Notes: generated from the letters alone by a model not told the origin. A stretch of 43,805 nt of DNA from Amoebophrya sp. A120 (GCA_905178155.1 CAJINV010000043.1:19055-62859); one strand, 5' to 3'; counted from the stretch's first letter, positions 1,029-36,338 are shown. Program-made: numbers and translations.

Positions 1029-4000
1029 ATGATGAGCAACGGCGGGGCAGCCGGGGGCGATAAGCCCCCGGGCGACACCAGCGCTGAACAACCGTCGGCC
1101 GCTTCTGTTTATGGGATAGTTCTCAAACGTTACATTCTCAACTGCTGCATGATTTGTCATGCAAAATTGACATCGACATGGACATCTACACGATGAAGTG
1201 CTTTTTCGCATGACATATTTTTGATGGCCCAATCGGCATGAAAATCATTTCCGAATTTGTAATGCTAGAGGCGCAAGCTCCCCGTCCCGGCTTCCACTTT
1301 TGCTATTCTTGCATCAAAAACCCATGTTGGAGCCGTTGAGATCGTAAACTTTGAGAATCGCATACTATTGCGGGACGATCAGCTGCAAACAAAATGAAGC
1401 GGAAAATGGGCGCGAAAGAAGGAAAGAAAGCGGGGAGCAGCAAGCGTGTTGTGGAGGAAGTGGAATCTGATGGGGTAAGGGAAGAAGTGATGACTTTTTG
1501 TTTTATGCAAAAGATGGAATTTTTTGTCATGCAGATTTCCAACAGGTACGGGATTGATGTATAAGAACTCCAACTGTAATTTGTAATGCATTTTTGCAAG
1601 TGGAACTGCTCTTACTCTATTCTACAAAAAATTCAGGTTGGCGAAGATGAGTGGAGGGCGGAAGAACTGGATAAGAAACAAGAGTATGCTCTGCAAAAAT
1701 ATCGCACTTCTTCGTCGCGAAAATTTCATAACAATCTTCATGCACAAGAAATCAGCTGGATTATGTCTGTGTCATGCATACAAGAAATCATTTATGAAAG
1801 CAGATCTGTCACACGGCACGACGATTTATCCATTGACAACTTTATTGTTTTCGTATCAATTGACGGTATTTTTGCACAGAATAAAGACGTTCCGAAACCT
1901 TTGGTGACAGACTTTCATACGCTATCCTGTGCAAGAAAAGTGCCTTCTTTGGAGGTCCTCAAGCGACTACTAGCACCGCTCTGTTAGTAAGTACACAGGT
2001 CTAGTTGATTGGCTACAAAGAAATCATTCATGACACGAACTTGATGGATCCTCGAGAATGAAAGTTACATTTAGCCGTGACGAGGTACTCGTACTACTCT
2101 TAGCGTATAGCTTCCTGGGCTCCTTGTGTACTATGCAGCCGTGCTGCATTTTTAGACAAGCGCAATTGGGGACCTCCACGAGGGTCTTTTTACGCAGGAT
2201 GCATGCGGGCGCTCTACGCGCAGCGACGCTGGGTCATGACGGAATCGGGGGCGGAGAAGAAGAGTGGGATGCAGGGACTTAAAACCGAGTGCGAAAGGAT
2301 TGAAGCGGAGGAAGGAAGTAAAAACCGAACAAATGCTGCGCAGAAGGAACTGGACCTGTGCCACATGTACCTGCAAAATATCGTGGGAAAAAAGTGTTAC
2401 AGTTACACACCCTGATGCAGACAAGCAAGACAGACGACCTCTGTCATGCAGGAAATGCTTGCCAGCGTGAGCGTCATTTCATTCGTGTTTTCTCTTATAC
2501 TCTGCGCATCACAGGTTTTCTTAGGCATGTCGAGCAACTTTGTGATGCAGAAACTCCAACAAGCGTGTAACTGTAACACTTTTTTCCTGTGATACAAAAA
2601 CATCAGAGGTTGCTGCCCGACGACACGGATGAAACCAACGCGGACGGAGACCACGGGAAAAGCGTCGACCAGCACGACAGAGCCGTCGGCGACGCAGCTG
2701 GTGCTCCTTCCCTCGGTGCGGAAAAGAACGAAAGCAAGGACTATTCCGCGGCGCATTTTCCGCAGGAGGCTGCAGCAAGAACGTCTTCAGCTGGTACTAG
2801 CCAAGTAAAAACAACAAACGACCAGCCGCTTGGGTCAACATCATCGGCCAGTGCTACAACTGGGACGTTTAACAAGCGAAATCTACTGACGACTTCCGCT
2901 TGTTCGCCAAGTTTCAGTTTGTTTTCACCACCGCTGCATTCAGAACGAGTACGAGAGCCAAGCTCGTTTTCCCCGTCGAGGCGCGTCGTGCCACAGCCGA
3001 GATCCTCGTCCTCGGCTTCAAGCGGAACTACGGTATCAACTGCAAGTATGTCTGGGTCTGGATGAATGTATAGATTTCACATGCATATTTCCATTGACCC
3101 ATGAAATGATGCCTGTAATGCATGACCTATGCATGACCTAGCGTCACAGATTTTTACAGGGCTTATTGATGCACCTTCCGCATGAGAAATAATTCTTTGT
3201 CCTTTTAGCACAAACAGTACACCTCCTGCTTGTCATGCAATACAAATTTTTTTGGAGTTCAAAAACAGCATGACAAGTCGCAATCCTCCAGACCAAGACA
3301 CTTTTGCGGTTGATATACGGGTTTAGTCGGCAACTTTACCACGCCTGCTCCCAGCTCCAGCGCGATCGCAAATACCAGGATGTTAAAGCAGTCGATCGAA
3401 CAAACAAGTACAAACCCGACGGTGGACAAGCAAGGCGGAGAGAAAAAGACCGCAAATGTTGAGTCGTCCGATAGTCTTCTTATCAACAACAAAAGTGCTG
3501 TTGCTCTCGGCGGGAAGAAGAAGCTTCCCACCACCACGACCGGTAGAACTAGTACCATTTCCACGACACAGAACCTTGATCCAGCTCCGGATGTTGCAGC
3601 TGGAGAAACTATGTCGACGCTCAGGTGGATACGACACTTCTCGCCCTTGCAACAACCAGGACGAACTACACCCGGCGATGGTAAAAACAGCAGTACCACT
3701 GTGAATGTGGTCGGAGCTGCTGCCGCGGCAACGACGAGCAAACCAGGTGGTCAGCAGCACGGTGCGCCATCTTCTTCTTCCACGAAGAACGCTGCAGTGG
3801 CCAAAAATAGTACAGGTGGCGCCACTAGCAGTGGCGTCCAGGTGAACAAACAATCTCGCGAAACAAGACTCCGTGAAGCCATGAAGAAGTACCGCAATGC
3901 TTTGGAGAAGAAGAAATATCAAAATGCAAAACTCCCCCTGCTCCCCGTACTAAAACGGAGATTTTTATAGCATGATTTGTGAACACAAATCAGGTTGTCA

Positions 4001-7000
4001 TGCCAGAAGACGAAAAATAAACGCGGACTGTAATTCTGGCTGGCGTTGGAATAAACCTTTGCATCTTCAGCATGGCAGAAGACAACTGAAAATTGGAAAC
4101 CGCATGACAAATTTCCTGCTTTTCGGGCCGCAACTGCTTCTCTTGGCCCTCGAGCAATACAAGTCGATTTGTGAACGCAAATCCAGCATCACGAATGTCC
4201 TTTTCAGTATGGGGAGGGAGGACTTTTCCTCGCCATAACACCACGGAGCATGAAGATGATCGTGAAGGCCGCAAAGTAGAAGCACCCGCCCCTGCACAAG
4301 ACGATGACGAAGCTAAGAACGCCGTAGCGCAGCAGGCGAAGATGAAGAACAAGGGCATGAAAAAAGCGCCGATGAAGAAAGCCACTGCAGCTGCTCCCGC
4401 GAAACCGAAGTACGACCCGGAGCTGCTGGAACTATTCGAGATACTAAAGTGCAACTATTTAATATTTGGGTCAGGAAGCGTGGAACGTGTCTTGCGTGGA
4501 GTGGATTCTTGTGAAATCTGTGTTGCATGGGTATGACCAACAAAAACGAGCGATCCTTTGTCAGGCAAAAATATGCAGCTTTTTATGCGCACTTGGCATG
4601 AGGCATCGCCTCCCAGCATTGCAAACTTCCCAGACCCAGACCTGTTTGCAATGCATACGAAGAGAATCAGGAGAATTCGATGACCAACGCGGACAAAGAC
4701 GAACTACAGAACATTTTCAACCTGCTTATCCCACTGAAGAAAGCTAGCACATAATTGCATTTGAAGTGCGTAGAATGAACAATCCACAGAGAGGTCCTCC
4801 GTCGTGGTTTCTTGTGGGCTCGTCCGTGGCATGCTAGTCAAGATGTTAGTGCGTAATACGAATTTTTTTGTGTCGGTATTTTTGTCGCATGTTGATGCAG
4901 AGATGAGATTTAGTGTGCTAGGTTTTTCATCCTGGCGGATAGTGCTCAAAACTTACAGAACAATACTCGGTGATATGACGTCCTCAAACGTTACTACACT
5001 CTCAACTGTTACATGAATTTGTAATGCAAGAAGGGCCGCAAAAGAGAAAGAACTGGAAGAAGGAAGATTGCGCCTTTTATTGCATATGCACATTTTTGAC
5101 GGATTCTAGTGCCATGTAGCCGCGTCGAGAAGTTGTCATGCGAAAAAGCCGCGGTCGTGTGCAGAGCCAGAGTACTAGTCTTTTTGCATGACAAGAAACC
5201 ATGTAACAGTTGAAAACGTAAAGTTTGAGAGCTCCATAGAGGAGACGAAGAATGAGGATCTGCACCAGTGGAAAGACATGAAAGAATTTGAAGATGATTT
5301 TGCGTCGGAGGTAATATATGTTCTTGAAGCAGAGCAGATACAGTTGTGTGGTTTTACTTTGTTGTCACTTTGTCCTCAACCTACTTTACACAAAAGCTTT
5401 GTAGTTGTACCGAATGCAGAAAGATCCAGAAATGGATGACGATTTCACCCCCTTGCAAAAGAAAAATTCAAAACTCCACCAGGTCGAAAAGCTTAAGGAG
5501 CTGCTGGATAAGCAATACCCCACTGAGTTGAAGATAGTTTGTCGTACCTGCGATTGCGATTTTTGACAAAACAATTCATACGAAATTGTAACATCTGGCT
5601 GCTAGTGTGCAACATTGGCAAAAGAAGGTGAAAGAGGCAACTGTGTAAGGCCTTAACCCAGCAACGTTTGCATGGCAAAAGAATGGAATACCGAAACAAC
5701 AATTTTTCCGCTTTGATTCAGATAGTGCAAAAATTGAGATCGCAGTTGAGACAACAAAAAGTTACGTTGCATAGCAGTAAGCTCCGCAAAATCACGAAGG
5801 CGTTCAATCAAGAGTTACCAAATGCAAGTATGTCTGGGTCTGAATCTCTCCTGCGCAAGATTCAGGTACAACAAGATCTGGCATGATGCATGAATACAAG
5901 TCACAAGCTTTTTTGTCTTGCTGGAAGCCGGGTTATCGGGCGGTAAATACGAATGAATGTGTAGCAATTATTTCGATTATCCTCGCGAAACTTATAATTC
6001 TCTCATGTCGTACACGAGGAGGCCGTCCTGCAATGCAGATACCAGCAACACAAATTCCGAGACCCAGACATATTCGTATATGCATAAACGTTCAAAGACT
6101 GCAGAAGCGCTCTAGCCGAGATGATAAAAATATCAAATACGAAACATGTAGTTGTTTGGGTGGGACTGGAAATAAAGTGAATAAGATTTATCATGCTCAG
6201 CGGGACTACCGGAATCAAATCTGTCATGCACGTTAGAGCAGCGTGTCAAGAAGTTCTTGAGACGTCAACTCGAGCGCCCTCCGGACTTTTCATCGCCAGC
6301 CAGCATTACAAATTTCCAGATGAACGCCCGAACACACATTTGGATTCAATAGATGATTCGCGACTATCTGATACGGACAGATGTCTGGAACGCGAAGCAA
6401 GCGGAACGCGCAGCAAGCGCGAGCGGTGAGAACGACGAAAACCGCAAAATAAGAAGTGAGGTATTGTTTACAATGTATAGTTAGAAGATTCATTGTGGTT
6501 TTTACGTACAACTACACCCACAGACGAAAGCAAATCATTCAGTCACACCGTGCATGACAAACTAGCTTTATCGTTGTACTTCTCGCCTTGATTTGTGCTT
6601 GAACGGAATTTCTTCTACTCTGCATGAGAAAAAGATAATACTCAAAAGAAAACAAAGCTATCAAAAACAAACCTTTGACATTCCAGGCCAACAGCCGAAA
6701 GCCTTCCTCGCCCGACGGTGTTGCCAAGAAAAATACCAAATCGGCTAAAAACTTGTCGAAGAGCGTCGCTCCGGCGGTGGTGCACAGGCGGAAAGATGAC
6801 AAACTACCGGCGCAAGAGCCAGTAACATCTGCAGCCTCCTCTTTTTCGGGTTCTTCTCGCGTTGTAGTTGGCCCGGCTGTGAGTAGTCTGCTCCTCCCGG
6901 CTTCTTCTAGCGGGGCACCTTCAGCGTCCTCTCGGAAAGTGCCGGCTGCTGTTGTGGAAGAGCAAGAGAGCGAGGAAGATGATGACGTAGTGGGCGAGAA

Positions 7001-10000
7001 GATCATCGCAGGTGGAAACGAAAATCACAGAGAGGAAGCTCGTTCGCATAAGAATAGCTCCTGTGCTGACAACGGACAACATGCCAAAGAATTAATCGGC
7101 GAAGAAACGAGTAGCGGTAACGTAGAGCAGGACGAGAACGCAATCAGCACGGCACAGGAGGACCACGACGCCAGTAATCAACATCTGCCCGAAGGAGCAG
7201 GAGCACCCGCGCCGGAGGGACCGTCGCGACGACCAAATAAGGTGCCGCAAATATATGCGGTTCAGACGAGGGACGGAAGATTAGTCCCAACAGACGAAGA
7301 AAGCCACAGGATCGTATGCAGGGAAACAAATGTGTTCAAATCTAGTTCTAGAAGGAATTTGTGTTGTTGGTTTGCTTGCATTGCAGCATGAAAAAGCAAT
7401 CAAAGATTGCATGACGAATTCCCATCTGCTCGACGCACGATGACAAAAACTCTGCACCAACGCGTAAGATCTGCAGCACAGATGTTCTTGCTGTCCCTCA
7501 GATCTACTCACACCACACAAAAAATCTGGATAGTTTTGAACGTTTTTGCCATCCATACCAGGCAGGAAAAATCGTAAGAAGTTGCAAGGGGTACACGGAT
7601 CATATCATGTGCAAAAGTATCGTACTCGTACTAATCGCAGTCGTGCATGACAAAATGCTTTCCATACCTGAATCAGCATGACAGATTCCATTTTTCAGCC
7701 GGCTGCGGTCGTTTGATTTCTACCAGAAGTGCGAGGATACTCTTGCACTGCATAAAGTACGAGGGCGTCGACGAGGAAGGAGAGGGTCTCTTCGACGAGC
7801 CAGAGCAGAGTCATCAGCAAGACAAACAACTTCGCAGCACTAGCACCCCGATGAAGCGCAAGCACCTCGGGAACGATGAGCCTGAGCTCGACGATGAAAG
7901 CGACAAAGCTGCGAAGACTCCATATGTTGGCAATTGTGAAGCACGAGAACAACACCAGAGCCCGAAGGTTGATGGAGCAGCCGGATCTTCCACCAGTGTG
8001 GTTCCGCGCGAGGAGGAGCGGCTGCTGATGACCCCCAAGTCGGACAAGAAGAAGCGGAGGAGATCTCTGTTCGAGATTGCGGGTGACCGCCACCAACAAG
8101 AACAGCATCTGGATGATGAACTACCACATGGCGCCGACGTCGCTCACAGCAGTGCCAGCTCTTCCGAAGAGGACAGCGAGTTGCAAGAGGCACTACTGAA
8201 CGACGCCCAGGAACAAGTAGACCGTCGTGGTGCATCAGCGATAGGAACTTTCTTGGACGAGGATGGAGGAATCGACGCTGAGAAAAATAACCAGGATGCT
8301 TCCTTTCTGGCCCAGTATGCATTGCGAAATCATGTGGATTTTCTCGTAGTCGTACTGGTTGCAAGGATGCAAGACCAATGATTTCTCCTTCCGTATTAAA
8401 ACTCTAAAACTACCCCGTATTGTAGTTTGATAGCAATTTCTATGTACAACTGCGAAGATCATAACTATGCTTTTGCAATGCATACGCAGCATCAACTACA
8501 AGCGAGTGTGAATCAGGACGTCGAAATGGAGGACGTAGAAATGGAGGACGTGGAGGGCTTATGCAATGCAAAAGCATCGTACGAGTTGTATAATTTGCAT
8601 TACAAATTCCCTAAGCATTAGAAATTGAATTTGTGATGCTGATTCACCTTGAGAAAGAGATTTGTAATGCCGAAATGCAATTACTACGAGTGCGATACTT
8701 TTGCACAGGATAAGGCTACGAGGATGAAAACGCTGACGAACAAAGAGACGCACACGACCCCGAGGGCGGAAGGTCCGTCGAACAAGAAGTGTCCTCCCGG
8801 GATGTTGCCGACGAGGAAGAGGCAGGGCAAGAAAATGAGGAAGAATTGTCCCGGCCCGGTGTCGAGGAGCAGGTGGCACAAGATGAAAACGAAGAGCACA
8901 GCGGCTTGGCTCCGGAGAATATCACACCCTTCGGTGGTCGAAGTCAACCCGTGCATCAAACTGGGAGCGATCGGGAACAAACGCCGGCAGGGCAGCAAAC
9001 CGTGTCATTTGCAGATCCGAAATTCTTCCCCTCACCACAACCAGGACGTTTATGAACCGCAAATATGTCTGGCCCTGGAAGATTCTAAACTTGTGATGCT
9101 GTCTCTGAAATCAGAAGAAATTTGTATTGTGTGGCCAGCAATAGAACTCCAGTTTGCCTTTGCGCTACGCGGAGAGAGCATTTCTCATGCGAAATAGGCA
9201 TTGGGAAGCCCTGCGAAAGTCTGTGATGCTAGTGCATGCATTACAGACCTCATGGGTCATCCAGAATATGCATGACAAATCTGGCAATCTTCCAGACCGA
9301 GATACTTTTGCAGTTCATAATGCTCGTTGCTAGCCGAAATCATGATCAGTCGCACCCCCGTATCCTTTGCAAAAGTATCGTGCTCGTACCAATTGCGTTT
9401 ATGCATGACAAATCTTTTTGATTTCTGCATTACAGATTTGATTTGTAATGCTAAGGTAATTTGCAATGCAGTTTACACTAGTGCGATGCTTTTGCAGTTC
9501 ATACCCCGCGTCACCGAAAAGACGACAGGAGGGAAGTTCCAGTGGGAGTAGCGAGGAGCAGGCGAAAAGGATGAGGAAGAACGGGGAAGGTGCCAGAAAC
9601 TACACTTACACGGCCAGTGAGGTAAGGAACTTTCCTCCCAACTGGGCGTATCAAGTGCCACGATGTCTGGGTCTTGAAGAATAGATGTTTGTCATGCTTG
9701 TTTGGCATGACTGGTAAATCTGTCATGCACGTTATCCAAGAGCAGCCCCACTTATCTGTCATGCAGAAACGCAGTTTGTCATGCAGCAGAAGCAACGCCT
9801 AGAAGCTCGGAAACTTGTCATGCTGAGCCAGCACTTGCGGCCTCCTCATGACACGCCACTTAGCATCACAAGTTTCCAGAGCCAGACCCAGATGTATTTG
9901 CAGCGCATAGGGCGGTGCCAGTTGGGGCGGTGCCAGTTGAAGGAACAGTGAACACGCCAAACTTCGGGGGCGGTGCCAGTACTTCTTCTAGCAACAGCGG

Positions 10001-13000
10001 AAATTTCGCATTTGCCCCACAGCAAAACGAAGACAATGACAACGTTCGCGGTGGTGCCGGTGCTCCTTCTAGTAACAGCGGAAATCTCGCCCCGCAGCAG
10101 CAAATGCAAGACGAAGGCAATGAAGACAACTTTCGTGGCGGTGCAAATGCTTTCAGCAGCAGAGGAAATAATTTCGTGCCCGAGCGAGGCGAAGAGAATG
10201 AAGAGCAGCAAGCCCAGGATGAGCAACATTTGTCCACAGGTTCAGCGTCCTCCTCTCCAAGACAATACCAACCAGACGGTGATAAGACCGACGAATTGCC
10301 GAGGGTGAGCTGTACTACTCCCAAGCGCCGTAGTACATCCTCCCGCCCAAACTCGAAGCAGCGTGGAGTTTCCGGTACCTACGAAATGCAGGGACCGTCT
10401 CCGGCGGGAGAAGAGCGGACGGAGAGTATCGTAAGGAAAAATGATCCCCCCTCCCCGTATCAAAACGAAGTTTCTGATGCTGGATTTCCGTACACAAATC
10501 AGATTTGTCTTGCAGTACTAGGGGACTGCAGGCATATGCCAAGCCTGAGCCGAGAGGCTTTGCCGTAGGCGAGCAGCATGGCAACTGTCTATTGCTGCAA
10601 GCTCAACAGCATCTTCACAAACCGCCTGCATAATGCGGCGGAGTCTCTGGCTTTGCCTTCTTGCAAGACAGACAGGACTTGTGGCCCGCAAATCTGCATC
10701 GCAAATTTTCAAACCGATGCACTTTCCACATGGGGAGGGGGGATTTTCCCTTACGATAGAGAGATACCGGGAGAAAATGAGCTTGACTCATCGTAGTGAG
10801 CAGTCGAGAAAGCTCGAAAAGGAACGGCTACAATATAAACTGCTGAGGTGTTACAATCTCAAACGCCACAATAGAATGCGGAAATCTGTGATGCAAGAAG
10901 TGCATGATCTAACATACTCCCACAGGACTGCGCATGACAAGTTTCACAGCACCAAACCGCACTAGAATCTGGCGAAATTTGTATTGCAGAAAGTGGAATG
11001 CTGTCCGAGTCTGTCATGCTCGTCATGCAGTAAGTACATGTACAAAATCCAGACTCTATTGTAACGTTTCAGATTGTAACGCTTGAGCAGGTCATATAGA
11101 AAAGCAGAAGTTGCGGCGCGAACGGAAAGAAGCAAATTCATCCTCGTCGCGGGCGAGCTCGAACGACTCCAGTTTTGTTCAAGACGGGCGAGGACCGCCA
11201 GCACAGCATCTTGAACTACCTGGTCGCAGGAGTACCAGCGTCGCGGCGTCTTGTATGCACAATAAAAAGACCCAACATCTCTATCCATTTTATGCATGAC
11301 AAACACAGGCCCTGACGCATGTTTTGCATGACAAAGTGGATGCTGGGTTTGGCCCTTTTTTTGTGGATAACTTCCTCCTCTCCGGAACAAGAACCGGGCC
11401 GTGCGTCCGATGCCGTCGTGCCAGAAACGCATATCAAATGCAAATATGTCTGGGTCCTCTGGGAGATAATTGCGAGATTTGTCATGCTAGTCTGGCATGT
11501 TGACTCTGAACTCTGCATTCCGTGGCCGCGAAGAGCAGCTCCTCTTGCCTGTCATGCAAAATCGCAGTTTCTCATGCGGAGTACGCAACTCAGAACCACG
11601 GCAAAACTTGTCATGCCGGGCAGCGTATAATTACAGGCTTTCCCTATTCCCTCTCTTGCGCCACAAGTTGCCAGACCCAGACATTTTTGCAGATGATAAG
11701 GCAGCAACCAGTGCAACAAACAGCAACCCTGGGAGTAGGAGCAACAAATGGCGCCTATGGCGCTCTCAGCTGTTGCATTCTCAACTGTTACATGAATTTG
11801 TGATGCAACAATGGCGAAAGCGACAGGGGGGAGCTTGCGTGTCGTGCATGACAGATTTGGTACAGATTTAGACGCTGTCTAGCAATTCGATAATTTGTCA
11901 TGCAAAGCAGCTTGGTCGCCTGGTGGCTTATGGCCATTTTGCATGACAAATCATGTAACAGCTGAGAATGTAACGTTTGAGAACGCCATAGCGCCAGGTG
12001 GCTCCCCGGGTTCGAACTACCATGGGTCGTGCAACAATTACAAGGACTCGCGGCAGCGGCAGCGTCATCTTCTTCTTCTTCGCAGCAGCAGCACCAACCC
12101 GCTATCCTGTGCTGAAGTATCGTACTCGTATTGCAGTCATGCATTACAAATTTGCCTTCAAATAAGGTAAATCCGCATTACAACTTCTCTTTCTCATGCT
12201 GAGGAAATTTGTAATGCACTTATACGAGTACGATACTTTTGCAGTTCATACCCGTAGTAGTACAGCCCAATAATGCATCTTCTTCTACGACACCAGGACC
12301 AGGCGTCATCAGGAATAATACAACGCCTGTGGTGAAAAAAGAACCCCCAAAAGCTCCCCGCCCTAGCCTTCAACCGGTGTATGACTCTTGGCACAAGAAC
12401 CACGAATGGCGTGAGAAAATATGCACTTGCGAAAGCATCGTAGTACCAGTAGTGGTGTACTATTTCATCACGTAGTTGTACATAAAATTTGCTCAGCATG
12501 ACAAGTGGAACTTGTACTGTTGGTTGTAGCTTTGCCTTTGGAAAAAGACTTGTGTTTATGTTGCCTATTATCCTGAGTAAAAACGTACCCACACCAGAGT
12601 TGTCATGCAGATTTACCATGACAGGAACATTTGTGATGCGCAACCCCGTGACAGGCATTTTCAATCGTGTTTGGGAACTTAAATGCTGTAAAGAGGATCA
12701 GCAGATCGATTTGTGATGCGGCTTCCCTTGCTAACTTGCACTACCTTACGGACTGAAACTTGTCATGCGTGACTCCCAAAGCTCCTAGGTTTGTGTTGCA
12801 AAATTGTGTAAATGAAAACTGGTTTTAAACGCTGTTTCTCATAGATCAAAATAGAAAAAATGAAGAGGATGATAAGAAAAAGCCACGAAAGCGATCAAGC
12901 GAGAAAAAGGGCCACAATACAAGGAAAAGCAAGCAAATTCTTGCCACGATCGGAAGAAAAAGGAAAGGGAAAAGAGAAGAAGAGAAAAGCAAAGAAATTA

Positions 13001-19519: not shown

Positions 19520-21067
19520 AAGTTTTAGAACTAGGATCGGGGTCGTCTTCATAGCATACACAGAACAATCGTAAATTGTACAAAAATAGCGGATAATTTA
19601 TAGAAGAAGTGTTACTAGAATCAGATTCAGAGAAAATATTTCAACTCGAAGATAAAAAAGTACTACAGTACAGCTACACGGTAAATTCATTCACATCTAC
19701 TTGAAAAATTTCGAATTGATGTTGTATCTAAAAGGCCGTCGTGCACAGAAACAGTGGACAGTACAGATTTGGATAGAAATGAAGAGTTTCAAGCTACCGA
19801 TGAGCATCGCTCACGCAATAGAAAAATGCACTGAATAAATTTGAATCGACTCAAAAAATATGTATTCTAAAGGAGCCATCTCGTACGCCAACAGTAACAG
19901 AGTGCATAGTTGTACATAGAAGTAAAAAATGCAGAAAATGTACAAAGAAAACCGAAATAGGAAAGAATGACACCAAAGACAAAATTACCGTATTACAATG
20001 GATGTAGATGCAAAACGAAAAACTAAAGCGAAACAATAGTGTCTCATAGATAAACACCGAGTGCTAGGTGAAAATATCACGGAGTAGAGGACATTCTTGC
20101 AAAATTGAAGTAATTGTAACTGGAAACTGCTCTGGAGTAAATGTAACTGTAGAAGCGTTGTAATAGCAGACCACACTACGACTTGGAAAAGGGAATGCAA
20201 AAATCATGGGCATGAAGCTCCACGTAGGAAAACTGTCACGGTCGGCTCGACTGTAAAGCGGCCGTGGTCAACTACTTACCTTGTGCTAGCAAAATGGAAA
20301 AATCCCTTTGGCCACAGAAGTACGAAAACTCGGTTTTTTTTTGTGAGGGCCAAGACGAGGCACACTACACTTTTCCACGTTCTGTCACCCATTTTTCGGT
20401 ATCAGTACCTTTTTGTGTTGCGTTCAAATAACTTGTCGTCTTATGGTTGTGTAGTTGTGTCTGTATGGGGAAAGTGCAGAAGGTCGGTATTTTTTTTGTG
20501 AAGACCAAGAGTAAGTAGAGTACAGCCTGCGCCCCGTCACAAATTCGGTCTTTTTTTTTTGTGCTGCGTGGGAGAGAGTTGTAGTTTGTGTGTCATCGTG
20601 TTTTTTTTGCAGCGAGTCGATCGAGTTGGAAAGAGGTAGTTTTTTTTTGTTGATTTACTTCGAATTCCCACACATGTACAAACGGGTCCCCGGGTGCAGG
20701 ACGTAGATAAATGCAAATTCACCTTTTTCCCTAGACCAGGACGAGGGACCGTGTGATGATCTACCAATACGTTGCAAAAGTAAGTTTCTTTGGAAGTAGT
20801 TGATGTACAAAGGTAGCCGCAGGCCTATACACCAAGAGTACTCTCAATTGATTTTCTCCTTGTTTTTTTTTGAAACAGAAAGACCGCAGCGAAGGGAGAG
20901 GTAGAGGACTGCAAAACGATGCGTTGAAAAACTCCTCTCTTCGTTTTCAAGTTCCTGCAAGAACCGCTAAAGAAAGCCGCTTTTTTTCGTCGAGGTCCAA
21001 AAGTAAAAAGGAAGAAACAAGCCGCAATTTTGCCCAGTGGAAAGGTGAAGTGCAACCGATAGTTGTG

Positions 21068-24000: not shown

Positions 24001-27000
24001 GGCCACTTTAAGTGGGAAACGGCATGACAAATCGCCTACAATTTTGGCCGCAACTGCGTCTGTTGGCCTTCTAGCATTACGAGTCGATTTGTGTACGCAA
24101 ATCCAGCATCACAAATGTCCTTTTCAATATGGGGAGGGGGGATTTTTCCTCACAATAGGCGATGAAAGAAGATTTAACGCAAGCTGTGCGAAGGATGAGG
24201 AAGTATTTTCTCGACGCCGTGGAAAACTGGACGGACGAACACGAAACTTCCATTACCGAAACCCAGAATAAGCTAAAAAAGGCGTTACGCGATTTTCGCG
24301 ACGTGTGCCGCGCAATCAAGATTTCCGAGCGCGAGGTGCCTCCGCTGTGCGAGTCTGTTACCAAAGCGTGCACGCATTATCCTGTGCAAAAGTATCTGAT
24401 ACTCGTATTGCAATCATGCATTACAAATCTTCTGCTAAAGGTAAATCCCCATCACAAATTCCATTTTTCATGCTGAGGAAATTTGTAATGCATTTATACG
24501 ACTACGATACTTATGCAATGCATACGCCTGTGGTGATAGGGATATTCCGAACCCAGATCGACTGGAATATGGAGTATGGAGTTCTCAACCGTTACATTCT
24601 CAACTGCATTACATGAATTTGTCATGCGAAACTAGTACCATCATCATCCACAAGATCAAGCTGCTTCGCATGACAAATTTGCGAAGGCGGGCTAAACAGC
24701 ACCTAAAGCTGCGCGAGATTTTTAATGCAATTTTTGCACCCTGTCTTCCCCCTTTCGCTTTTATTGCCATTCTTGCATTACAGATTCATGTAACAGTTTT
24801 GAGAATGTAACGTTTGAGAACACCATAGGGAGAGCGCAGAATTTCGAGAGGAAGTGACACGGAAATATGAGGAGTTCCGCCAGGAGGCGGGATTGTCGGA
24901 GGAAAGTCGTTATAAACTGCAAAAGTATCCGATACTTGTGTAAATGCATTACAAATTTTCTTGGCATGAGAAATAAAATTTGTAATGCGGATTTAGCTTC
25001 AGAAAATGATTTGTAATGCATGATTGCAATACGAGTATCAGATACTTTTGCACAGGAGCGTCGTGCGAAAACCCCCGTGAACAACGAGCCGCAAGAAGCT
25101 GGTACTGCGGCGACCGTGAGCAACAAGAAAAAAGAACTCCACCCGGTCGTGCAGAGCGTGTTTGAAGCGAACAATGAGGATGGCAAAATGGAAATAACGC
25201 CGAAGAAGCAGGTAGAATTCGTGGAAGCTTTCGACCGGATTATATGCAAGAAGAAAACTGTGGAAGTGTAAATTTGTGTTGCAGAAGAGGATGCAAGACA
25301 CCAACACTTGTCATGCTGGACATGCATCAGAGGTTCTTCTCGTAAAGTGTTTGCACCGATACCAGCAATACACATGAGAGGTTTATTTCTCTGTCATGCA
25401 GGGCCGAGCAAATTTGTGATGCTGTTCCTCGAAGAAAGTTACACTTTTACATATTTTTTTTCCTGGATAGATCAACCGATACTTTCACAAAATCGTAGAA
25501 GGGAGCCCGGAAGATACAGATCTCGATCGAAACAAGGACTTGTTGCGGGAAGCGAAAATCGACTTTGACGCCCTGTTGGAGGAGCATATCAAATGCAAAA
25601 ATGTCTGGGTCTGGAAGGATGTAACTTGTGATCATGCTATCTCTGGATTCTAAAAAAATCTGTATTGCATGACCAGCAAGAGGGGTCGGGTTTGTCCTAC
25701 GTGGAGAGGGCATTTCTCATGCGGTAGAGGTATCGCAAAGCCCTCCAAAAATCAGTGATGCTACGGCATGCATCACAGACATCATGGCTCATGCAACATA
25801 TGCATGACAGATCTAGAAATCTTCCAGACCCAGACACTTTTGCATTTGATAACGCACGATATCGAGCAACCGTCCGAAAAGTGGCTAAAAGCTGAAAGAG
25901 CGTGTGATGATGTGCTGAAGGGGGAAAAGAGGACCTGCTTTGACTCGGAAGCCGAGCCGGACTCTGACGTCTCACAGGAAGGGCGCGCGGTGGAGAACGA
26001 AACGAACTTGCAGAATACGGTATGAACGACGTAGAATTATTGTTCCTTCCGGTATCATATTGGTCGAAAAAACGGTATTTTTGTGTTCTACAAACCATGA
26101 TCCGTGAAAAATCTACATCTCCATTTACGACGCAGCTGTCGTTGCATTTAGATGAACCGAAAACGAGAAATCATAATCAAAGTCCATACCAAAATCGTTT
26201 CCCTCAGGTCCAGGTGCGTGCGGAGTCCCCCGTGGTCGCCCCCCGCTCGGCTGCGCAATTACTCCTTGCCCCTGCTGGCAGTTCCAGGTCACCGTGTGCG
26301 GATTCGTTCGAGGCCTTGAGACAGCAGGACCAGGAAGATAGTAACGGCGAAGAAAGAAGTGGCGCCCAGGACGGGGAAGTACAAGGGCAACGTTTTGAAG
26401 AAGGTCGTGCTCCCGCGCAGAACGACGAGTTGGAGATGAACGAAGGACAAGACCACGGTGACGCCGCACAAGGAAAAAAGGCAACCAAGATGAAGAAGGC
26501 AAAAAAGATGAAAAAGGCGAAGGAAAATAACGAGAACAACACACCCGCCGCTCTGCTACAGGGCAACGCAACGTCCTCTAGCACGATGGCCGGTCAGGGT
26601 GCGGTGGCGGCGCGCGGAAAGTCATCGTCATCGTCCATTTTTAGTGCGGTACTGAATTCTGGTTCCATGTTGAAGGATTTCAAAAATGATCTCGTTCTCA
26701 ACATTTTTGCAGTACTTACAGTCTGCAATTCATCACGGTAATTACTTCGATGTTTAGAAATGTCACAGAAACAGAACAGAACTCTTATTTTCTGGACCGG
26801 AATTCAATCCAATTCGTATAATTACACCAATATCAGGTATCGCACGGCAAGAATCTCATGGCGACCGTCCCTTCGAGCAGCAGTGTCGAACAGAAAATAT
26901 GAGAATGCACAATCCCCCACGTCGTCCCCCGGATCTGTAATGCATAAACAGAAATATTAGGAGCATCGGCAACAGAAAGAGTACAGTATGCGCATTACAG

Positions 27001-28764
27001 ATTCACACAGGAGTATAGTGCTGGTTGAGCTCCCGAGCGACCCCTGTCATGCAACACTCACAACAAAAAAACGGTAAATCTGCCTGTTGTCATTGACAAA
27101 CGAGGAAGCGGGGGGGCGGAGGTTTGTACACTCTCATAGAGGAAAAACAACATCGTGAACACCACCTTCAGTGCCGCGAATACTACCACGCCGCACTCGA
27201 CCGATGCCACCATGACCACTGCTCTGTACGGCGGTGGACAACTACAAGGAACTACGAAACAAAAGAGGTCCCAGATGAAGAAGCTTACCGCCCCTTGTAC
27301 CGCAAAGGCTCCGTCGAAAAAGATGAACCCGTCCACCTCTGTCACCAACGGATCAACTACGAAGTTGTCTGCAGCATCTTCTACCAACAGCGGTACTACA
27401 AAGGGCAAAACGCCTGTGCGGAAATCTGGTGGGAAGCAGCCGGCTGCTGCTAGCTTCTTAGTCGCACCAGCACCGACGAAAAGCTACGGATCATCTTCCT
27501 GGGACACGCCGAAAGTGATATGAGAGTGTACAACTCCCCCTTCCCCTCATTTGTCATGCAAAACCCCAAATGCAAATCCAAAACCAAATGCTCCACTGTG
27601 GCACTGTTTGCACCACAGATTCCTGTCGTGACACTGTTTGCATCACAGATTCCGGATGAATGATCCCAAACAGTACTACAGTAGGCGCATGAGTTTGTCA
27701 TGCACAGGCTTGACATGTGGTGCTGTTTGTATTGCTGTTCATGCAATACAAATGAGGGGGAGGGGGGGTTGTGCACTCTCATAAAGGGTTCAGCCAATAT
27801 ACAAACCACCGAGAAGAACTGGCGGTAGCAGCGGTGCATCGGAGGACCTGCCGGTGGTATAGTAAACCAATTTTTGTCAATCATGTATGCACAGAGCGTA
27901 TAGATGATGAAATTGAGATCTTCGTCATTTATTTCCCATGAGCAGACGGTGTGTCCTCTGTAGGAACAGTGGCTGAATATGAATATGAAATTTATTCTTT
28001 CAAGAAATAAAATCGAATCAGCATTCCTATCCGTCGCACACCTCCGGTAGCCTCGTCGAGGGTGAGCGGTCGCGAATATCAAACGCAAAAGTGTTTCAGT
28101 CCTCTGGAAAGCCGGGGCTTGTAATGCTGGTCGCACATTTCGCACATTCCCGTGAAAAAAAAATCCACAGTTCAGCATCACAACTTTGCGTTTCCAGAGG
28201 ACCCAAACACATTTGCAATGCATAGCGGAAGATCCGGTACCAGGATAAGAGTCCGCATATGAACTGCAAAAGTATCGTACTCGAATAAATGCATTACAAA
28301 TTTTCTCAGCATGAGAAAAAAAATTTGTATTATGCTGATTTGCCTTGACAAAGAAATTTGTAATGCAAGACCAGCATTTATACGAGTGCGATACTTTTGC
28401 ACGGGATACCGCAGTTGTCCTTTGGTACGAACACCAAACACGGTATCCTGTGCAAAAACGTCCCCACACCAGAGTCAAGCTGGGAAATCTGCTAGACAAA
28501 TCTGTCAGCTTTTGCTGCTGCGCATGACAAGTTTGGCCTCGCAGTGTAATCCTGTTTAGCTTGTTCAGCAGCATCACAGATGTAGCATATCATGCTGATT
28601 CTAGCATCACAAATCCCACAACACGACTAGAGACTGCTTCTCATGGGTCTCCGCATGAGAAGCATTTTCAGCATGCAGATTTGCATTACAACTCTGGTGT
28701 GGGGACGTTGTTACAACTGATACAGGGAGCGACCTCCTCGTCTAGCCGCGCGCCGTGGTCGTAA
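21068..28764 (+). CDS. Gene 2: multi-exon hypothetical protein (K-rich, low complexity), ~19 non-canonical introns; ends approximate
   Basis: ATG 21068 (MAAQKDKG). In-frame joins include KHFT-EQNGK and QSVF-DAYEKRKTSSSMKMTEA-MKEDLTQ. Region 26000-28100 only partly resolved. Confidence 0.65.
21155..21329. mobile_element. Introner-like element (diverged)
   Basis: TATGGGAGGAAAAA ... AAATTTCCCCTATA; DR ATTCA/TTTCG. Confidence 0.45.
21943..22112. mobile_element. Introner family B
   Basis: TATCCTGTGCAAAAGTATC ... GATACTTTTGCAGTGCATA; perfect DR CACTG; frame restored. Confidence 0.9.
22184..22452. mobile_element. Introner family A
   Basis: TATCAAATGTAAAAATGTCTGGGTCT ... AGACCCAGACATTTTTACATTTGATT; perfect DR GGGGA. 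Confidence 0.9.
22499..22734. mobile_element. Introner family D
   Basis: TATGGAATTCCCAA..TCTCAACCGT ... ACGGTTGAAAATGT..TTGAGAACTCCATA; DR poor. Confidence 0.7.
22821..23089. mobile_element. Introner family A
   Basis: TATCAAATGTAAAAATGTCTGGGTCTGGAA ... TTCCAGACCCAGACATTTTTGCACTAGATA; perfect DR TGGGG. Confidence 0.9.
23138..23404. mobile_element. Introner family A
   Basis: TATGGCTTGCAAAAATGTCTGGGTCGGGAAGATT ... AATCTTCCCGACCTAGATATTTTTGCAGTTGATA; perfect DR TTCCC. Confidence 0.9.
23515..23790. mobile_element. Introner family A
   Basis: TACCAAGTGCAAAAATGTCTGGGTCTGGAAG ... CTTCCTGACCCAGACATTTTTACATTTGATA; perfect DR TTTCG; frame restored. Confidence 0.9.
23847..24157. mobile_element. Introner family F
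   Basis: TATCACAAAGAAAAATCCCCCCTCCCCATA ... TATGGGGAGGGGGGATTTTTCCTCACAATA; perfect DR GGCGA; frame restored. Confidence 0.9.
24378..24524. mobile_element. Introner family B
   Basis: TATCCTGTGCAAAAGTATC ... GATACTTATGCAATGCATA; DR CGCAT/CGCCT. Confidence 0.85.
24575..24827. mobile_element. Introner family D
   Basis: TATGGAGTTCTCAACCGTTACATTCTCAA ... TTGAGAATGTAACGTTTGAGAACACCATA; DR TGGAG/GGGAG. Confidence 0.9.
24911..25059. mobile_element. Introner family B (inverted sibling of 24378-24524)
   Basis: TATAAACTGCAAAAGTATC ... GATACTTTTGCACAGGAGC; perfect DR GTCGT. Confidence 0.85.
25243..25469. mobile_element. Introner family E-like
   Basis: TATGCAAGAAGAAAA..AAGTGTAA ... TTACACTTT..TTTTTTCCTGGATA; DR GATTA/GATCA. 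Confidence 0.65.
25587..25851. mobile_element. Introner family A
   Basis: TATCAAATGCAAAAATGTCTGGGTCTGGAAG ... CTTCCAGACCCAGACACTTTTGCATTTGATA; DR GAGCA/ACGCA. Confidence 0.9.
26898..27138. mobile_element. Introner family G
   Basis: TATGAGAATGCACAATCCCCC ... GGAGGTTTGTACACTCTCATA. Confidence 0.7.
27519..27783. mobile_element. Introner family G
   Basis: TATGAGAGTGTACAACTCCCCCTTCCCCTCATTTGT ... ACAAATGAGGGGGAGGGGGGGTTGTGCACTCTCATA. Confidence 0.85.
28077..28224. mobile_element. Short introner, family A-type TIR
   Basis: TATCAAACGCAAAAGTGTTTCAGTCCTCTGGAAA ... TTTCCAGAGGACCCAAACACATTTGCAATGCATA; DR GCGAA/GCGGA. Confidence 0.8.
28258..28408. mobile_element. Introner family B (reverse orientation)
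   Basis: TATGAACTGCAAAAGTATCGTACTCG ... CGAGTGCGATACTTTTGCACGGGATA; perfect DR CCGCA. Confidence 0.9.
28444..28722. mobile_element. Introner family C
   Basis: TATCCTGTGCAAAAACGTCCCCACACCAGAGT ... ACTCTGGTGTGGGGACGTTGTTACAACTGATA; DR CACGG/CAGGG. Confidence 0.85.
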
Positions 28765-32499: not shown

Positions 32500-35400
32500 A
32501 TGGCAACATCCGGCTCATCTGCGCAAAGAACAACGGGAGTGAGCGACCAGCTTCCCTTCACTCACCCGGACAGCAGTGAGGGCCACGCGACAAACACCAA
32601 CGCTGCGGACGAGCCGTCCGTTGTTCCGCCGGAAGTAGGAGTCGACAGCGACCTGGAACAAGCAGAACAACGGGAGCTCGATCCTGCCGTATTTTCTAGC
32701 CGAAGCGCTGCTGCATTTCTCCCGACCCTGTTGCAGCACGACCAACCGGAAGGAAAATTAGAGGGTGTACCACGAGAGAAAGAATCCTCCAAGCTCGTCC
32801 AAGCGTCGTCCGCGATGGGCCGTAGGCTGTTGGAGCAGGACGAGAATCCGGCAAGAAGCAGTCCCTTCGCTTATTTTCCCACCAGTAGTGCTACTTCTAC
32901 GTCTACCCAAGTACAACAACACCACTCCCGTGCTGTCACCAGCCTGCAGCAAAGCGGTGGGGATCAGGAGGATGAGATATCAGTACCCCGCCTAGAAGTC
33001 GGTGAACAACAGGACAACTCTGGTGCTCCGTTGGTGCAGCTATGCATTGCAAAAGTAACGTACTAGTAGTAATTGCATTTATGCATTACAAATCTCTTTC
33101 TCAAGGTAAAACAGCATTACGAATTTGATTTGTAATGCTGGACTAATTTGTGATGCAATTTATACGTAGTACGATGCTTTTGCGTTGCATAGCAGCAGGA
33201 CCCTGACGGTAGTTACAGCTCACCGGCGCCGAAAGACGGGCGGAAAGACGGTGAAGAGTCGTCTTCTTCTCACGACCAGTCAATGCCCTGGTCGGCGTTT
33301 GTCGGGTCGGACGGCAAGCCTCTGTTTGGTCGTGATACGGCCGGTGACGAAGACCACGCTGCTGGACGAACTAGCTCTTCGTCGCCGATCGGAAACTACG
33401 ACCAGTACGTTCACACGCAGAAGCGGTACAACAATCATTTTTGCGGTGGGAGCGGGGAGCGGGTGGAACCGCGATCTGGATCACAGTCGCCGTCGCAGTA
33501 CACGTTATCAAATGCAAATATGTCACCTGGGTCTGGAAATATTGTGATGCTGTTTTTGCACGACACGAGAAGTTTGCGATGGACGCTTTACTAGCATCAC
33601 AAGTTTAGTAGAGAAGAGTCCCAATGCCTAATCCGCATTACAAATTCCCGTTCTCGGAGACAGAAAATGAGGCAGCTTTTGCTGCCTATGCATGAGAGAT
33701 TTGTGTGTGTTGTGAAATGCGCATGATCGATCACAAGTTTGCAATCTTCAAGAGGGTCGTCCAGGAGACATATTTGCAATGCATATCCGTACTACTCCGG
33801 TGATTCCCAACTTGCACCACGACAGGCAGCAGCAACTGCGGGAGCGGAAGATGCGGGGCAGTCCGTGGCCTTCGAAAATTACGATGTAGGACATGATATC
33901 AAATGCAAAAATGTCTGGGTCTGGAAGATTCCAAGAAACCTGTAATGCTGTTTCTGGATTCTGAAAAAATTCGTGTTGCATGACCAGCAAGAGGACTCCA
34001 GTTTGTGCTACGCGGCGAGGGCATTTCTCATGCGGCAGAGGCATCACAAAGCGCTCTAAAGATCCGTGATGCTACGGCATGCATCACAGACATCATCGGT
34101 CATGGAAAATATGCATGACAAGTCTAGAAACCTCCCAGACCCAAACATTTTTGCATTTGATACATGACGCCGGGGACGACGACAACACCCCCAGCAGCAC
34201 CTGCACAGCGCTCCACCTCCCGGACTACTGGACCTCGACTTACACCTATCAAATGCAAAAGTGTCTGGGTCTGGAAGAGTGCAGGAGTTTGTCATGCAAA
34301 TTTTGCATGACCCATGAGGTCTGTCGTGATGCATGCTGTAGCATGAGAGATTCAGCGAGGGCTTTCTGATGCTCATACCGCATGAGAAAAGCCCTCTCCG
34401 CGTAGCAAAAATTGCACCTCTGTTGCTGTTCATGCAATACAAATCTTTCATAGAATCCACAAGTGGCAACCTTCCAGACCCAGACATTTTTGCAATCCAG
34501 AACACCATCGACACGACAAAATTCGAACACGTCCGCTGGGAGATCTTCGCCGCGTTTGAATATGCTCTGCAAAAGTATCGCACTCATACTAATTGCGTTT
34601 CTGCATTACAAATCTTTTTATTAAGGGAAATCCGCATGACAAATTCCATTTCTCATGCTAAGGAAACTTGTATTGCAAGTTGTACTAGCTCTAGCACGAT
34701 GCTTTTGCATTGCATATTGAAAAGCACATGCTGAAATTCTGGTTTCTCATGCTGAAGCCGGACGTGAGGAACGCGAAAAAGTGGTCGGACCGGTACATCC
34801 CGACATCGGACATGATCACGCAAATCGTCAAGCACCACGTGGTATGAACTGCAAAAGTATCGTACTCGTAGTAATTGCACTCATGCAAGACAAATTTCAT
34901 TTTTGAGCTAAATCAGCATGACAAGTTCCGTTTGTCATGCTGAGGAAATTTGTGATGCGTTTATACGAGTACGGTACTTTTGCAATTCATAAGTCGAAGA
35001 ATTTTTCGCCCCGACCGCGGAATTCGGTATCATGTTGCAGGAACAGACCTTGGCGTTTTTGCAAGAGGGTAAGGAGGAGCTGTTTCGCCAAGAGCCGATG
35101 GGAAAGTCGATTTTTCCGAAATCAATCATCGGCAAACTGCTGCGAGTCCAGTTGGAACGGGTTTGGAAGGACAAGAACTACGATTTTTTCGCGCAGAAGC
35201 TGTTCAACAATGTGAATCTTTTTTGCGACAGCGAATTCGACTTCGAGGGCAACTTCTTCGGGGACGGTTTGTCAGGCGGAGTAGAGGACCGGAAAAACAG
35301 CACGACCACGACCTCTCTGACTTATGGAGTGCAAAAGTATCGTACTCGTATAAATGCATGACAAGTTTCCTCAGCATGACAAATAAAATTTGTAATGTGG

Positions 35401-36338
35401 AGTTACCTTGAGAACAGAATTTGTAATGCATGACTGCGATTAGTGCGAGTACGATACTTTTGCAATGCATATGACCTCCGTCCCTGCGACGTTTCAGGAG
35501 GAGTGCGTCGGCCACACCTTCCGGAGCTCGTGTCTGCATATCGTGGCGAAAATTTTTTTGCAGCAGGCAACACCGTCAATTTGTCATGGTCTTCTTCATG
35601 CTTGGAATGCATAAGCTTTGAACTACTGTGTCTATTGGTATTGTATCTGATTTTGCATGACAAACTGACAGTGATGCCGGTTCTTTCCTGGTCGATACTG
35701 CTGTGGCTGAAACGAGAGGCGTGGCGGGTCGTGAAACAGCAGCATTTATCAATCGCAAAAGTACAACTACCGCTTGTAGTTCCGATAAATTTTCAATTGC
35801 AGTACTTTTGCATGACAGACTTCTTCTCTATACCAAAATCTGCATGACAAATAGTCTATTCTGACTTTCGAAAAACTTTCTGATGCAAACGATGATACTT
35901 AGCATCCGATAGTTGTACTTGTGCAATGCATAGCGAAGGCTGCGATACGGAGTTACCGAGAAGAAATTCTACCGTAATGACAGCTGCGGGTCAACTGGAG
36001 GGGTGAAGAAAAGGAGGGTGGGGTGGTGAACCACCGCCGAAATCGAGATGACCTTTTACGGCAAAATGAACAGAAAACATCGCACAAGAAAAACTTCCAT
36101 CAACAGCGAAGACATTTTTTTCCACCGCGCCGGGGAGCAGAACAAAGCTTCTGTACTTCCGTCTCATCGTCAACCCACTACATCAGCAGCAGTGCATCGG
36201 GAAGAGAAACAAAGAGTCACCACATCAACAGCTGAAGCGAAAAAAACGACAAAATTATTCCCGTATCAGACTTTTTCTCCCTTGTTCAACATTATGCAAG
36301 ACGGGGGAGGACCACAAAACCAGAACTACGAAAGTTGA
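32500..36338 (+). CDS. Gene 3: multi-exon hypothetical protein, at least 8 non-canonical introns; 3' end approximate
   Basis: ATG 32500 (MATSGSSAQ); join LVQ-QDPDGSYS links ORF 32500 to ORF 33283; later exon includes QEQTLAFLQEGKEELF. Confidence 0.65.
33041..33191. mobile_element. Introner family B
   Basis: TATGCATTGCAAAAGTAACGTACT ... AGTACGATGCTTTTGCGTTGCATA; perfect DR GCAGC; frame restored. Confidence 0.9.
33506..33785. mobile_element. Introner family A-type TIR
   Basis: TATCAAATGCAAATATGTCACCTGG ... CCAGGAGACATATTTGCAATGCATA; DR CACGT/TCCGT. Confidence 0.8.
33897..34162. mobile_element. Introner family A
   Basis: TATCAAATGCAAAAATGTCTGGGTCTGG ... CCAGACCCAAACATTTTTGCATTTGATA; perfect DR CATGA. 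Confidence 0.92.
34247..34501. mobile_element. Introner family A (opposite orientation to 33897)
   Basis: TATCAAATGCAAAAGTGTCTGGGTCTGGAAG ... CTTCCAGACCCAGACATTTTTGCAATCCAGA; perfect DR ACACC. Confidence 0.9.
34561..34716. mobile_element. Introner family B
   Basis: TATGCTCTGCAAAAGTATCG ... CGATGCTTTTGCATTGCATA; perfect DR TTGAA. Confidence 0.9.
34843..34991. mobile_element. Introner family B
   Basis: TATGAACTGCAAAAGTATCGTACTCGTA ... TACGAGTACGGTACTTTTGCAATTCATA; DR CGTGG/AGTCG. Confidence 0.85.
35323..35471. mobile_element. Introner family B
   Basis: TATGGAGTGCAAAAGTATCGTACTCG ... CGAGTACGATACTTTTGCAATGCATA; DR TGACT/TGACC. Confidence 0.9.
35747..35932. mobile_element. Introner family B-like (diverged)
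   Basis: TATCAATCGCAAAAGTACAACTA ... TAGTTGTACTTGTGCAATGCATA. Confidence 0.7.

What the first reader, a model, noticed from the sequence alone, without database searches (positions are those of the whole stretch)
1029..36338. Genes spliced through ~55-60 TAT...ATA TIR elements with 5-bp direct repeats and no GT-AG
Seen: nearly every interruption in three genes is a 115-335 bp element bounded by TAT...ATA inverted repeats and flanked by a 5-bp DR of arbitrary sequence (CAAAA, TACGG, CCCCG, GGGCG, GAGAG, GCGCC, TTCCC, ACACC, TTGAA and others). Removing the element plus one DR restores the frame at >15 junctions checked by hand. For DRs such as CAAAA, TTCCC and ACACC, no sliding of the boundary within the DR yields GT/GC-AG. 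Known (from memory): non-canonical IR/DR-bounded introner elements were reported in Amoebophrya, with the excision mechanism unresolved; introners in green algae and pelagophytes use canonical sites. Inference: a separate precise removal system (hairpin-guided RNA splicing, or DNA excision) makes these transposons neutral in coding sequence.
Basis: partly seen in the sequence, partly recalled or inferred. Interest (0 to 1): 0.92.

Follow-up and report, generated by a model that had tools for sequence, protein, structure and literature searches.

The report
Known Amoebophrya transposon introns, fixed cut
These genes of the marine parasite Amoebophrya are interrupted by about 60 small transposons that were already described as unusual introns; the addition here is that they are likely cut out of the RNA at a fixed distance from their hairpin ends, whichever way round they inserted.

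Summary
Two window exons are 100% identical to Amoebophrya sp. A120 proteins. The end motif, TAT-N7-AAA with 5-bp direct repeats, is the one Farhat et al. 2021 published for A120 introner elements. I find 52 clear elements, 7 degenerate ones, 1 nested one and 7 ordinary GT-AG introns. Published transcript-based gene models span 15 of the 52 junctions and remove exactly element+5 nt at 15 of 15. Only one register fits all 15: N|TAT...ATA-NNNN|, cut 1 nt before and 4 nt after the stem. The paper calls the sites variable. Families lie in both orientations, and empty paralogous sites in related metagenome loci show the repeat is a target-site duplication. Symmetric ends with an asymmetric, transcript-oriented cut point to RNA processing, not DNA excision. 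The N-U-A start hints at a relaxed spliceosome (inferred). One intron is a 5,005-nt triple nest holding a young LTR element. No reads could be examined.

The parts
1029..19452 (+). Gene 1, predicted ORF of about 1,860 codons of unknown function; 32 element-type introns and 3 GT-AG introns
   Evidence: 0 internal stops with register (-1,+4); residues from 10104 to 12418 match annotated P0002/P0003; the rest is my model; some boundaries in 4433-6351 are uncertain
1110..12250 (.). 19 clear elements in gene 1, first part: 1110-1364, 1685-1883, 1923-2201, 2379-2594, 3034-3315, 3917-4237, 4974-5238, 7603-7754, 8316-8484, 8560-8712, 9051-9319, 9361-9503, 9649-9909, 10427-10758, 10834-11096, 11254-11369, 11432-11698, 11756-11990, 12103-12250
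   Evidence: the last six are skipped as element+5 nt in P0002
4433..7557 (.). 6 degenerate elements in gene 1: 4433-4657, 4727-4941, 5545-5724, 5816-6086, 6125 or 6131-6351, 7315-7557 (the last reads GT-AG at the same register)
   Evidence: weak inverted repeats or decayed direct repeats; frame kept with the same register; not checked against any transcript model
12420..17419 (.). Outer element of a triple nest; predicted 5,005-nt intron 12419-17423
   Evidence: TAT/ATA ends, repeat GAAAA/GAAAC; ORF continues in frame across it; annotated P0003 is 'partial' and stops at its edge
12569..17359 (.). Second element inserted inside the first, exact 5-bp repeat CCTAT, 20/20 inverted repeat; sister of 18153-18431
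12805..17313 (+). LTR element inside the second element: two identical 441-nt TG...CA repeats (12805-13245, 16873-17313), 4-bp target duplication AAAT, no stop-free stretch over 186 codons
   Evidence: strand inferred from primer-site-like and polypurine-like motifs (recalled)
17523..19423 (.). 6 clear elements in gene 1, last part: 17523-17797, 17861-18119, 18153-18431, 18607-18818, 18857-19144, 19236-19423
21068..28764 (+). Gene 2, predicted 946-aa ORF of unknown function; 18 element-type and 4 GT-AG introns
   Evidence: 0 internal stops; no matching annotated protein found
21155..28722 (.). 17 clear elements in gene 2: 21943-22112, 22184-22452, 22499-22734, 22821-23089, 23138-23404, 23515-23790, 23847-24157, 24378-24524, 24575-24827, 24911-25059, 25243-25469, 25587-25851, 26898-27138, 27519-27783, 28077-28224, 28258-28408, 28444-28722; plus degenerate 21155-21362
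32500..36029 (+). Gene 3 = P0001 (A120 GSA120T00025987001), 577 aa, 9 introns, all element-type
   Evidence: spliced model identical to P0001 only with register (-1,+4)
33041..35932 (.). 9 elements in gene 3: 33041-33191, 33506-33785, 33897-34162, 34247-34501, 34561-34716, 34843-34991, 35323-35471, 35539-35697, 35747-35932; two families present in both orientations
35747..35932 (.). Most informative junction: repeats GCATT/GCGAA allow only register (-1,+4), giving a TT-GA intron
1475..28021 (+). 7 ordinary GT-AG introns: 1475-1636, 5311-5419, 6461-6686, 21452-21545, 26020-26207, 26649-26836, 27857-28021; all begin GTA
   Evidence: predicted from frame; not checked against transcripts
40164..40672 (.).
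   Evidence: frame open only for k=2, 5, 8

Best explanation
These are the introner elements of Amoebophrya sp. A120: short non-coding transposons with inverted ends that duplicate 5 bp on insertion and are likely removed from the pre-mRNA, probably by a spliceosome with relaxed site recognition, at a fixed distance from the end hairpin. Steps: (1) insertion at nearly arbitrary sites, in either orientation, makes a 5-bp target duplication (shown); (2) the ends pair into a long stem in either orientation (predicted); (3) the RNA is cut 1 nt before TAT and 4 nt after ATA, so four bases of the left repeat and one of the right are kept and the original codons are restored (element+5 nt shown for 15 published models; the exact register inferred); (4) the 5' end then reads N-U-A, like the G-U-A of the organism's ordinary introns, so U2/U5/U6 chemistry with a free +1 base and a distance-defined 3' site is the simplest catalyst (inferred, untested). 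The mobilising enzyme is not identified.
For: Identity with A120 proteins whose models were built from transcript alignments (PMC7789003 section 25). Same end motif as published. Element+5 nt at 15 of 15 junctions; (-1,+4) is the only register allowed at all 15 and the only one of 6 reproducing P0001 exactly; Bayes factor about 12 for one fixed register over a random one. Both orientations: 12 vs 9 in the largest window group, both within P0001, 28 vs 23 for one family in related loci. Related metagenome loci: 239 of 308 elements found without using the repeat have an exact 5-bp repeat; 4 of 314 junction queries hit an ungapped empty paralogous site. Ends paired in 48 of 51 sense and 49 of 51 antisense folds, against 7 of 51 controls. 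All 9 predominant A120 non-canonical sites in the paper's Table S4 are NT-NN and all 9 of A25 are TT-NN. 8 of 8 GT-AG introns here start GTA. The paper finds all but 6 of 89 spliceosomal proteins, U2/U4/U5/U6 in A120, and the same repeat layout in 15% of A120 canonical introns.
Against: No reads were seen; 37 of 52 junctions, all of gene 2 and the 5-kb intron have no transcript-derived check. The choice of (-1,+4) over (-2,+3) rests on one junction (35747); P0003 fits both. The stop-codon test in related loci had little power: 1 stop in 34 mismatched repeats, at (-4,+1) only, and codon scores favoured (0,+5) slightly over (-1,+4), 18.0 vs 15.4. The paper describes sites as variable relative to the hairpin. 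Annotated donors and acceptors look shifted towards GT/AT and AG/AC, so Table S4 is not clean evidence. Against a spliceosome: no preference for G at +1 or AG at the end (7 of 164 GT-AG, 6.1 expected), U1 snRNA not found, any branch signal would have to sit in the symmetric ends, and the stem would bury both sites.
Confidence: 0.6

Rival explanations
1. Same elements and same RNA-level cut, but by a non-spliceosomal, hairpin-guided nuclease and ligase, as proposed for euglenid nonconventional introns.
For: No sequence preference at +1 or at the last two bases; works in both orientations; stem predicted in 48 of 51; U1 snRNA missing. Euglena introns also have an asymmetric code, N3-CDG...CHG-N5-6, need end pairing (PMC12501133) and leave circles rather than lariats (PMC11282704).
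Against: +2 U and +3 A match the native GUA donor in A120, and A25 sites start TT with TTA-type ends; 7314-7561 is GT-AG in the same register; no such enzyme is identified.
Confidence: 0.3
2. Precise excision from DNA, like ciliate internal eliminated sequences.
For: Symmetric inverted ends and a target duplication are DNA-transposon features; element+one repeat restores the empty site exactly.
Against: A dyad-symmetric DNA cut should give (-1,+4) and (-4,+1) equally; 4 of 15 junctions exclude (-4,+1) and none excludes (-1,+4). Old copies persist with decayed repeats and accumulate nested insertions. From general knowledge, no separate germline nucleus is known in this lineage, so excision would be inherited. 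All informative window genes are on one strand, which weakens the first argument.
Confidence: 0.04
3. The junctions are reverse-transcriptase template-switching artefacts at hairpins flanked by direct repeats, and the genes are disrupted.
For: Hairpin plus direct repeat is the known signature of such artefacts (recalled); support is from cDNA-based models only.
Against: Removal is still exactly element+5 nt where the repeats share only 2 of 5 bases (35747, 11254); ORFs of 577 to about 1,860 codons stay open only after removal; 164 of 293 elements in related loci sit in long ORFs after removal.
Confidence: 0.03

Closest known systems
Amoebophrya sp. A120 introner elements (Farhat et al. 2021, PMC7789003; 58 A120 families in Gozashti et al. 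2025, PMC12130899)
   Same: Same organism and genes; TAT-N7-AAA inverted repeats; 5-bp direct repeats; non-canonical ends; hairpin; many per gene; no transposase inside.
   Different: Nothing in kind. The passages I read give repeats of 3-5 nt and variable sites; here the repeat is strictly 5 bp, one register fits all 15 checked junctions, and both orientations and nesting are seen. I could not see the papers' figures.
Euglenid nonconventional introns (PMC12501133; review PMC11282704)
   Same: Non-GT-AG ends, paired ends, direct repeats, cut sites at fixed asymmetric distances from a conserved triplet (3 and 5-6 nt there, 1 and 4 nt here).
   Different: Different triplet (CAG/CTG), code tested by knock-in there, circular products reported; unrelated lineage.
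Fritillaria borealis non-canonical introns (from review PMC11282704, section 6)
   Same: MITE-derived, inverted repeats and target duplications; removed by an adapted spliceosome.
   Different: Prevalent AG-AC/AG-AT ends and a TAC target; here target and terminal dinucleotides are nearly free.
Micromonas and Aureococcus introners (as described in PMC7789003, section 16)
   Same: Non-autonomous elements that become introns; Aureococcus ones carry terminal inverted and direct repeats.
   Different: Aureococcus elements use canonical splice motifs.

Membership tests
A120 introner elements | Occurs in Amoebophrya A120 genes | tested here: met
   100% identity of two exons to A120 proteins
A120 introner elements | Inverted repeat starting TAT, 7 looser bases, then at least 3 A | tested here: met
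   end matrix against the description; one minor family has CTCAA instead
A120 introner elements | 3-5 nt direct repeat overlapping the exon/intron boundary | tested here: met
   5 bp, 21 of 52 exact, 38 of 52 at least 4/5
A120 introner elements | Repeated in families | tested here: met
   36 of 51 cluster into 6 groups, 15 singletons
A120 introner elements | Absent from transcripts, with non-canonical ends | tested here: met
   indirect: skipped in transcript-based models at 15 of 15 junctions covered, of 52; no reads seen
A120 introner elements | Hairpin joining the ends | tested here: met
   prediction only: 48 of 51 vs 7 of 51 controls
Non-autonomous TIR DNA transposons (MITE-like) | Constant-length target duplication shown by empty sites | tested here: met
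   239 of 308 exact at 5 bp; 4 ungapped empty paralogous sites among 314 queries
Non-autonomous TIR DNA transposons (MITE-like) | Autonomous partner with the same ends and a transposase | tested here: inconclusive
   8 long end pairs in window and loci, longest stop-free stretch 210 codons, no transposase identified; only about 0.46 Mb examined
U2-type spliceosomal introns | GT/GC-AG ends | tested here: not met
   0 of 52 GT-AG at the inferred register; 4 of 52 GT/GC-AG at any register
U2-type spliceosomal introns | Lariat intermediate and snRNP dependence | not testable with these tools
   needs RNA experiments
Euglenid nonconventional introns | N3-CDG...CHG-N5-6 code | tested here: not met
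   ends are N-TAT...ATA-N4; works like it, not a member
Ciliate-type eliminated DNA | Empty sites in somatic DNA of the same cell line | not testable with these tools
   no genome or reads were available

The most novel reading that the evidence does not exclude
A120 uses a strict hairpin-ruler splice code, N|UAU...AUA-NNNN|, that ignores the terminal bases and the element's orientation and still works across a 5-kb nest of three mobile elements; any new insertion with these ends is then a perfect intron at once.
Probability: 0.6. Interest if true: 0.6.

Novelty: already known. Interest (0 to 1): 0.32.

Why it matters
The elements and their non-canonical removal were published for this genome in 2021 and catalogued again in 2025, so the finding itself is known. 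The excision mechanism is still open. A fixed register would make it testable: it says where to look for branch points or circle junctions, lets gene models be corrected (the 65% non-canonical introns of A120 would reduce largely to one rule), and parallels the Euglena code in an unrelated lineage.

Tried and rejected
No genome was held and no sequencing runs were obtained, so splicing was not seen in reads. Gene 2 exons found no annotated protein: none of 772 candidates, and one weak 24% hit to a repeat protein judged unrelated. P0001 has no relative in metagenome contigs (267 stretches, none confirmed). The end motif is absent from viral contigs. Pfam gave no family for P0001, P0002 or two exons, and one sub-threshold hit for a third. 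The atlas gave nothing usable; no tRNA or Rfam hits. Register tests on related loci: stop codons and codon scores too weak. A solved homologue reads M-H-G-G where the options are MPG, MRG or VRG, weakly against registers (0,+5) and (-5,0); the upstream exon gave no hit and a second enzyme alignment stopped before the junction. No target-site consensus. No autonomous element found. Earlier scan notes: none. Frame alone was rejected as proof of 5 nt. My first automatic gene models misread 4433-6690 and the start of gene 2 and were corrected by hand.

Full report
1. Observation. A scan for TAT...ATA pairs with inverted and 5-bp direct repeats gave 17 exact-repeat pairs, against 0-2 in each of 20 shuffles. 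An end matrix, family BLAST and hand curation gave 52 clear elements: 51 of 116-332 nt and one of 5,000 nt. 47 of 52 end TAT...ATA. The repeat is 5 bp and no other length, its sequence is nearly arbitrary (50 distinct of 52), and it is exact in 21, 4/5 in 17 and worse in 14. Seven degenerate copies and one nested copy make 60. The genes also hold 7 ordinary GT-AG introns. GT-AG is reachable by sliding in 1 of 52 elements and GC-AG in 3.

2. Gene models. Removing element+5 nt opens three ORFs on the + strand: about 1,860 codons (1029-19452), 946 aa (21068-28764) and 577 aa (32500-36029). Removal of 2 or 8 extra bases also gives no stops, while other values give 1-20, so frame fixes only the remainder modulo 3.

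3. Identity. An exon of gene 3 is 100% identical to an Amoebophrya sp. A120 protein (P0001) and an exon of gene 1 to another (P0002/P0003). Two gene 2 exons found nothing credible. Farhat et al. 2021 (PMC7789003; I read the abstract, sections 10-12, 16 and 25, search passages, and supplement parts 2-3 of 5 as text, not the figures) describe A120 introners whose inverted repeats start with TAT, then 7 looser bases and at least three A, with 3-5 nt direct repeats and a 5-bp example. Their gene models come from transcript alignments. Gozashti et al. 2025 (PMC12130899; passages and 22 of 58 A120 rows of one dataset) report tens of introner introns in single A120 genes and class most of the rows I saw as TIR DNA elements of unknown superfamily. 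The finding is therefore known.

4. What is removed. For the 15 junctions spanned by P0001 and P0002, I tested every removal starting within 14 nt of the left end and stopping from 14 nt before to 19 nt after the right end. Only element+5 nt fitted, 15 of 15. Where the two repeats differ, the protein shows which copy is kept: 8 of 15 junctions restrict the register, and only (-1,+4) is allowed at all of them. It alone of 6 registers reproduces P0001 letter for letter; P0003 fits (-1,+4) and (-2,+3). A single fixed register is about 12 times more likely than a random one, but the step from (-2,+3) to (-1,+4) rests on junction 35747. The paper's Table S4 lists nine predominant A120 non-canonical sites, all NT-NN, as a cut one base before TAT predicts; annotation bias towards GT/AT may contribute. 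The paper's own legend calls the sites variable. I did not find a fixed register or orientation independence stated in the text I read or searched (word search of PMC7789003; library searches); it may be visible in figures S19-S23, which I could not see.

5. Wider sample. An end motif retrieved 154 loci from metagenome contigs, 137 after merging, 418 kb. Detection without using the repeat gave 308 elements, 239 with an exact 5-bp repeat. Of 293 with at least 3/5 identity (15 dropped), 164 sit in long ORFs after removal. Among those, GT-AG at (-1,+4) occurs 7 times against 6.1 expected, families lie in both orientations (28/23, 10/4, 3/2, 4/5, 9/7), and the two ends are alike in composition; strand was assigned by ORF score and may be wrong for some. 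Four of 314 joined flanks match a paralogous repeat without the element and without gaps (L009, L047), a fifth with a 4-nt gap, so the repeat is a target duplication. Only 34 of the 164 had mismatched repeats; they gave one stop, at (-4,+1), and no clear ranking of the other registers.

6. Mechanism. Shown: insertion with a 5-bp duplication at nearly free targets, both orientations, and element+5 nt missing from transcript-based models, including opposite orientations of two families in gene 3. Predicted: a terminal stem in 48 of 51 sense and 49 of 51 antisense folds against 7 of 51 controls. Inferred: symmetric ends with an asymmetric cut tied to the direction of transcription mean RNA processing. 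Repeat identity is not needed, since 35747 and 11254 share 2 of 5 bases, which argues against recombination or template switching. The intron then starts N-U-A, and all 8 GT-AG introns here start GTA. With a nearly complete spliceosome lacking a detected U1, a relaxed spliceosome is my best guess (about 0.6 for the whole chain). A hairpin-guided nuclease and ligase, as suggested for euglenids (PMC12501133, abstract part and passages; PMC11282704, passages and section 6), gets 0.3. PMC11453091 (passages) only restates the 2021 numbers.

7. Nest. Element 12420-17419 contains element 12569-17359 (exact repeat, 20/20 ends), which contains a 4.5-kb LTR element with identical 441-nt repeats and a 4-bp duplication; removing the LTR element and one copy restores the length of sister copy 18153-18431 at that point. 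The ORF runs in frame across the predicted 5,005-nt intron, but the annotated protein stops there, so splicing across it is unproven.

8. Verdict. Observation confirmed; already known as A120 introner elements; interest 0.32. The refinement worth testing is the fixed code N|TAT...ATA-NNNN| (probability 0.6, interest 0.6 if true).

Noticed in passing
window 12805-17313: Very young non-coding LTR element (identical 441-nt repeats, 4-bp duplication) nested two levels deep in an intron; no other copy in the window or the 137 merged loci.
   Followed up: partly
loci L001-L154: Intron phase is skewed at register (-1,+4): 87 phase 0, 39 phase 1, 38 phase 2 of 164 (p about 6e-7), with no target consensus to explain it; the window is weaker, 22/12/17 of 51. 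Unexplained.
   Followed up: partly
loci L001-L154: A related natural population carries the same element families at up to about 82% identity for full-length matches, with more exact repeats (239 of 308) than the window, so these families are not confined to the cultured strain; the sample was selected by an intact end motif.
   Followed up: partly
window 7314-7561 and 26649-26836: GT-AG introns whose ends also read TAT/TAC...ATA in the (-1,+4) register; possibly old elements that became canonical.
   Followed up: partly
window 40098-41523: Candidate fourth gene with two elements whose direct repeats have decayed to 0-2 of 5; a third possible element at 41271-41523.
   Followed up: partly
window 22184-22452, 24911-25059, 34247-34501, 1923-2201: Right ends ATT, AGC, AGA and ATG instead of ATA; 34247 is still skipped in P0001, so the terminal triplet is not strictly needed.
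   Followed up: partly
window 1-265, 31160-31234, 43756-43805: Tandem repeats of 144, 25 and 13 nt; 31001-32000 is 73% G+C.
   Followed up: no
L060:4245-5044, L027:2582-4844, L015:4353-5585: Conserved genes interrupted by the same elements: a UDP-GlcNAc dehydratase relative, an enoyl-CoA hydratase multifunctional enzyme and a likely SNF2-type helicase (recalled motif, not tested).
   Followed up: partly
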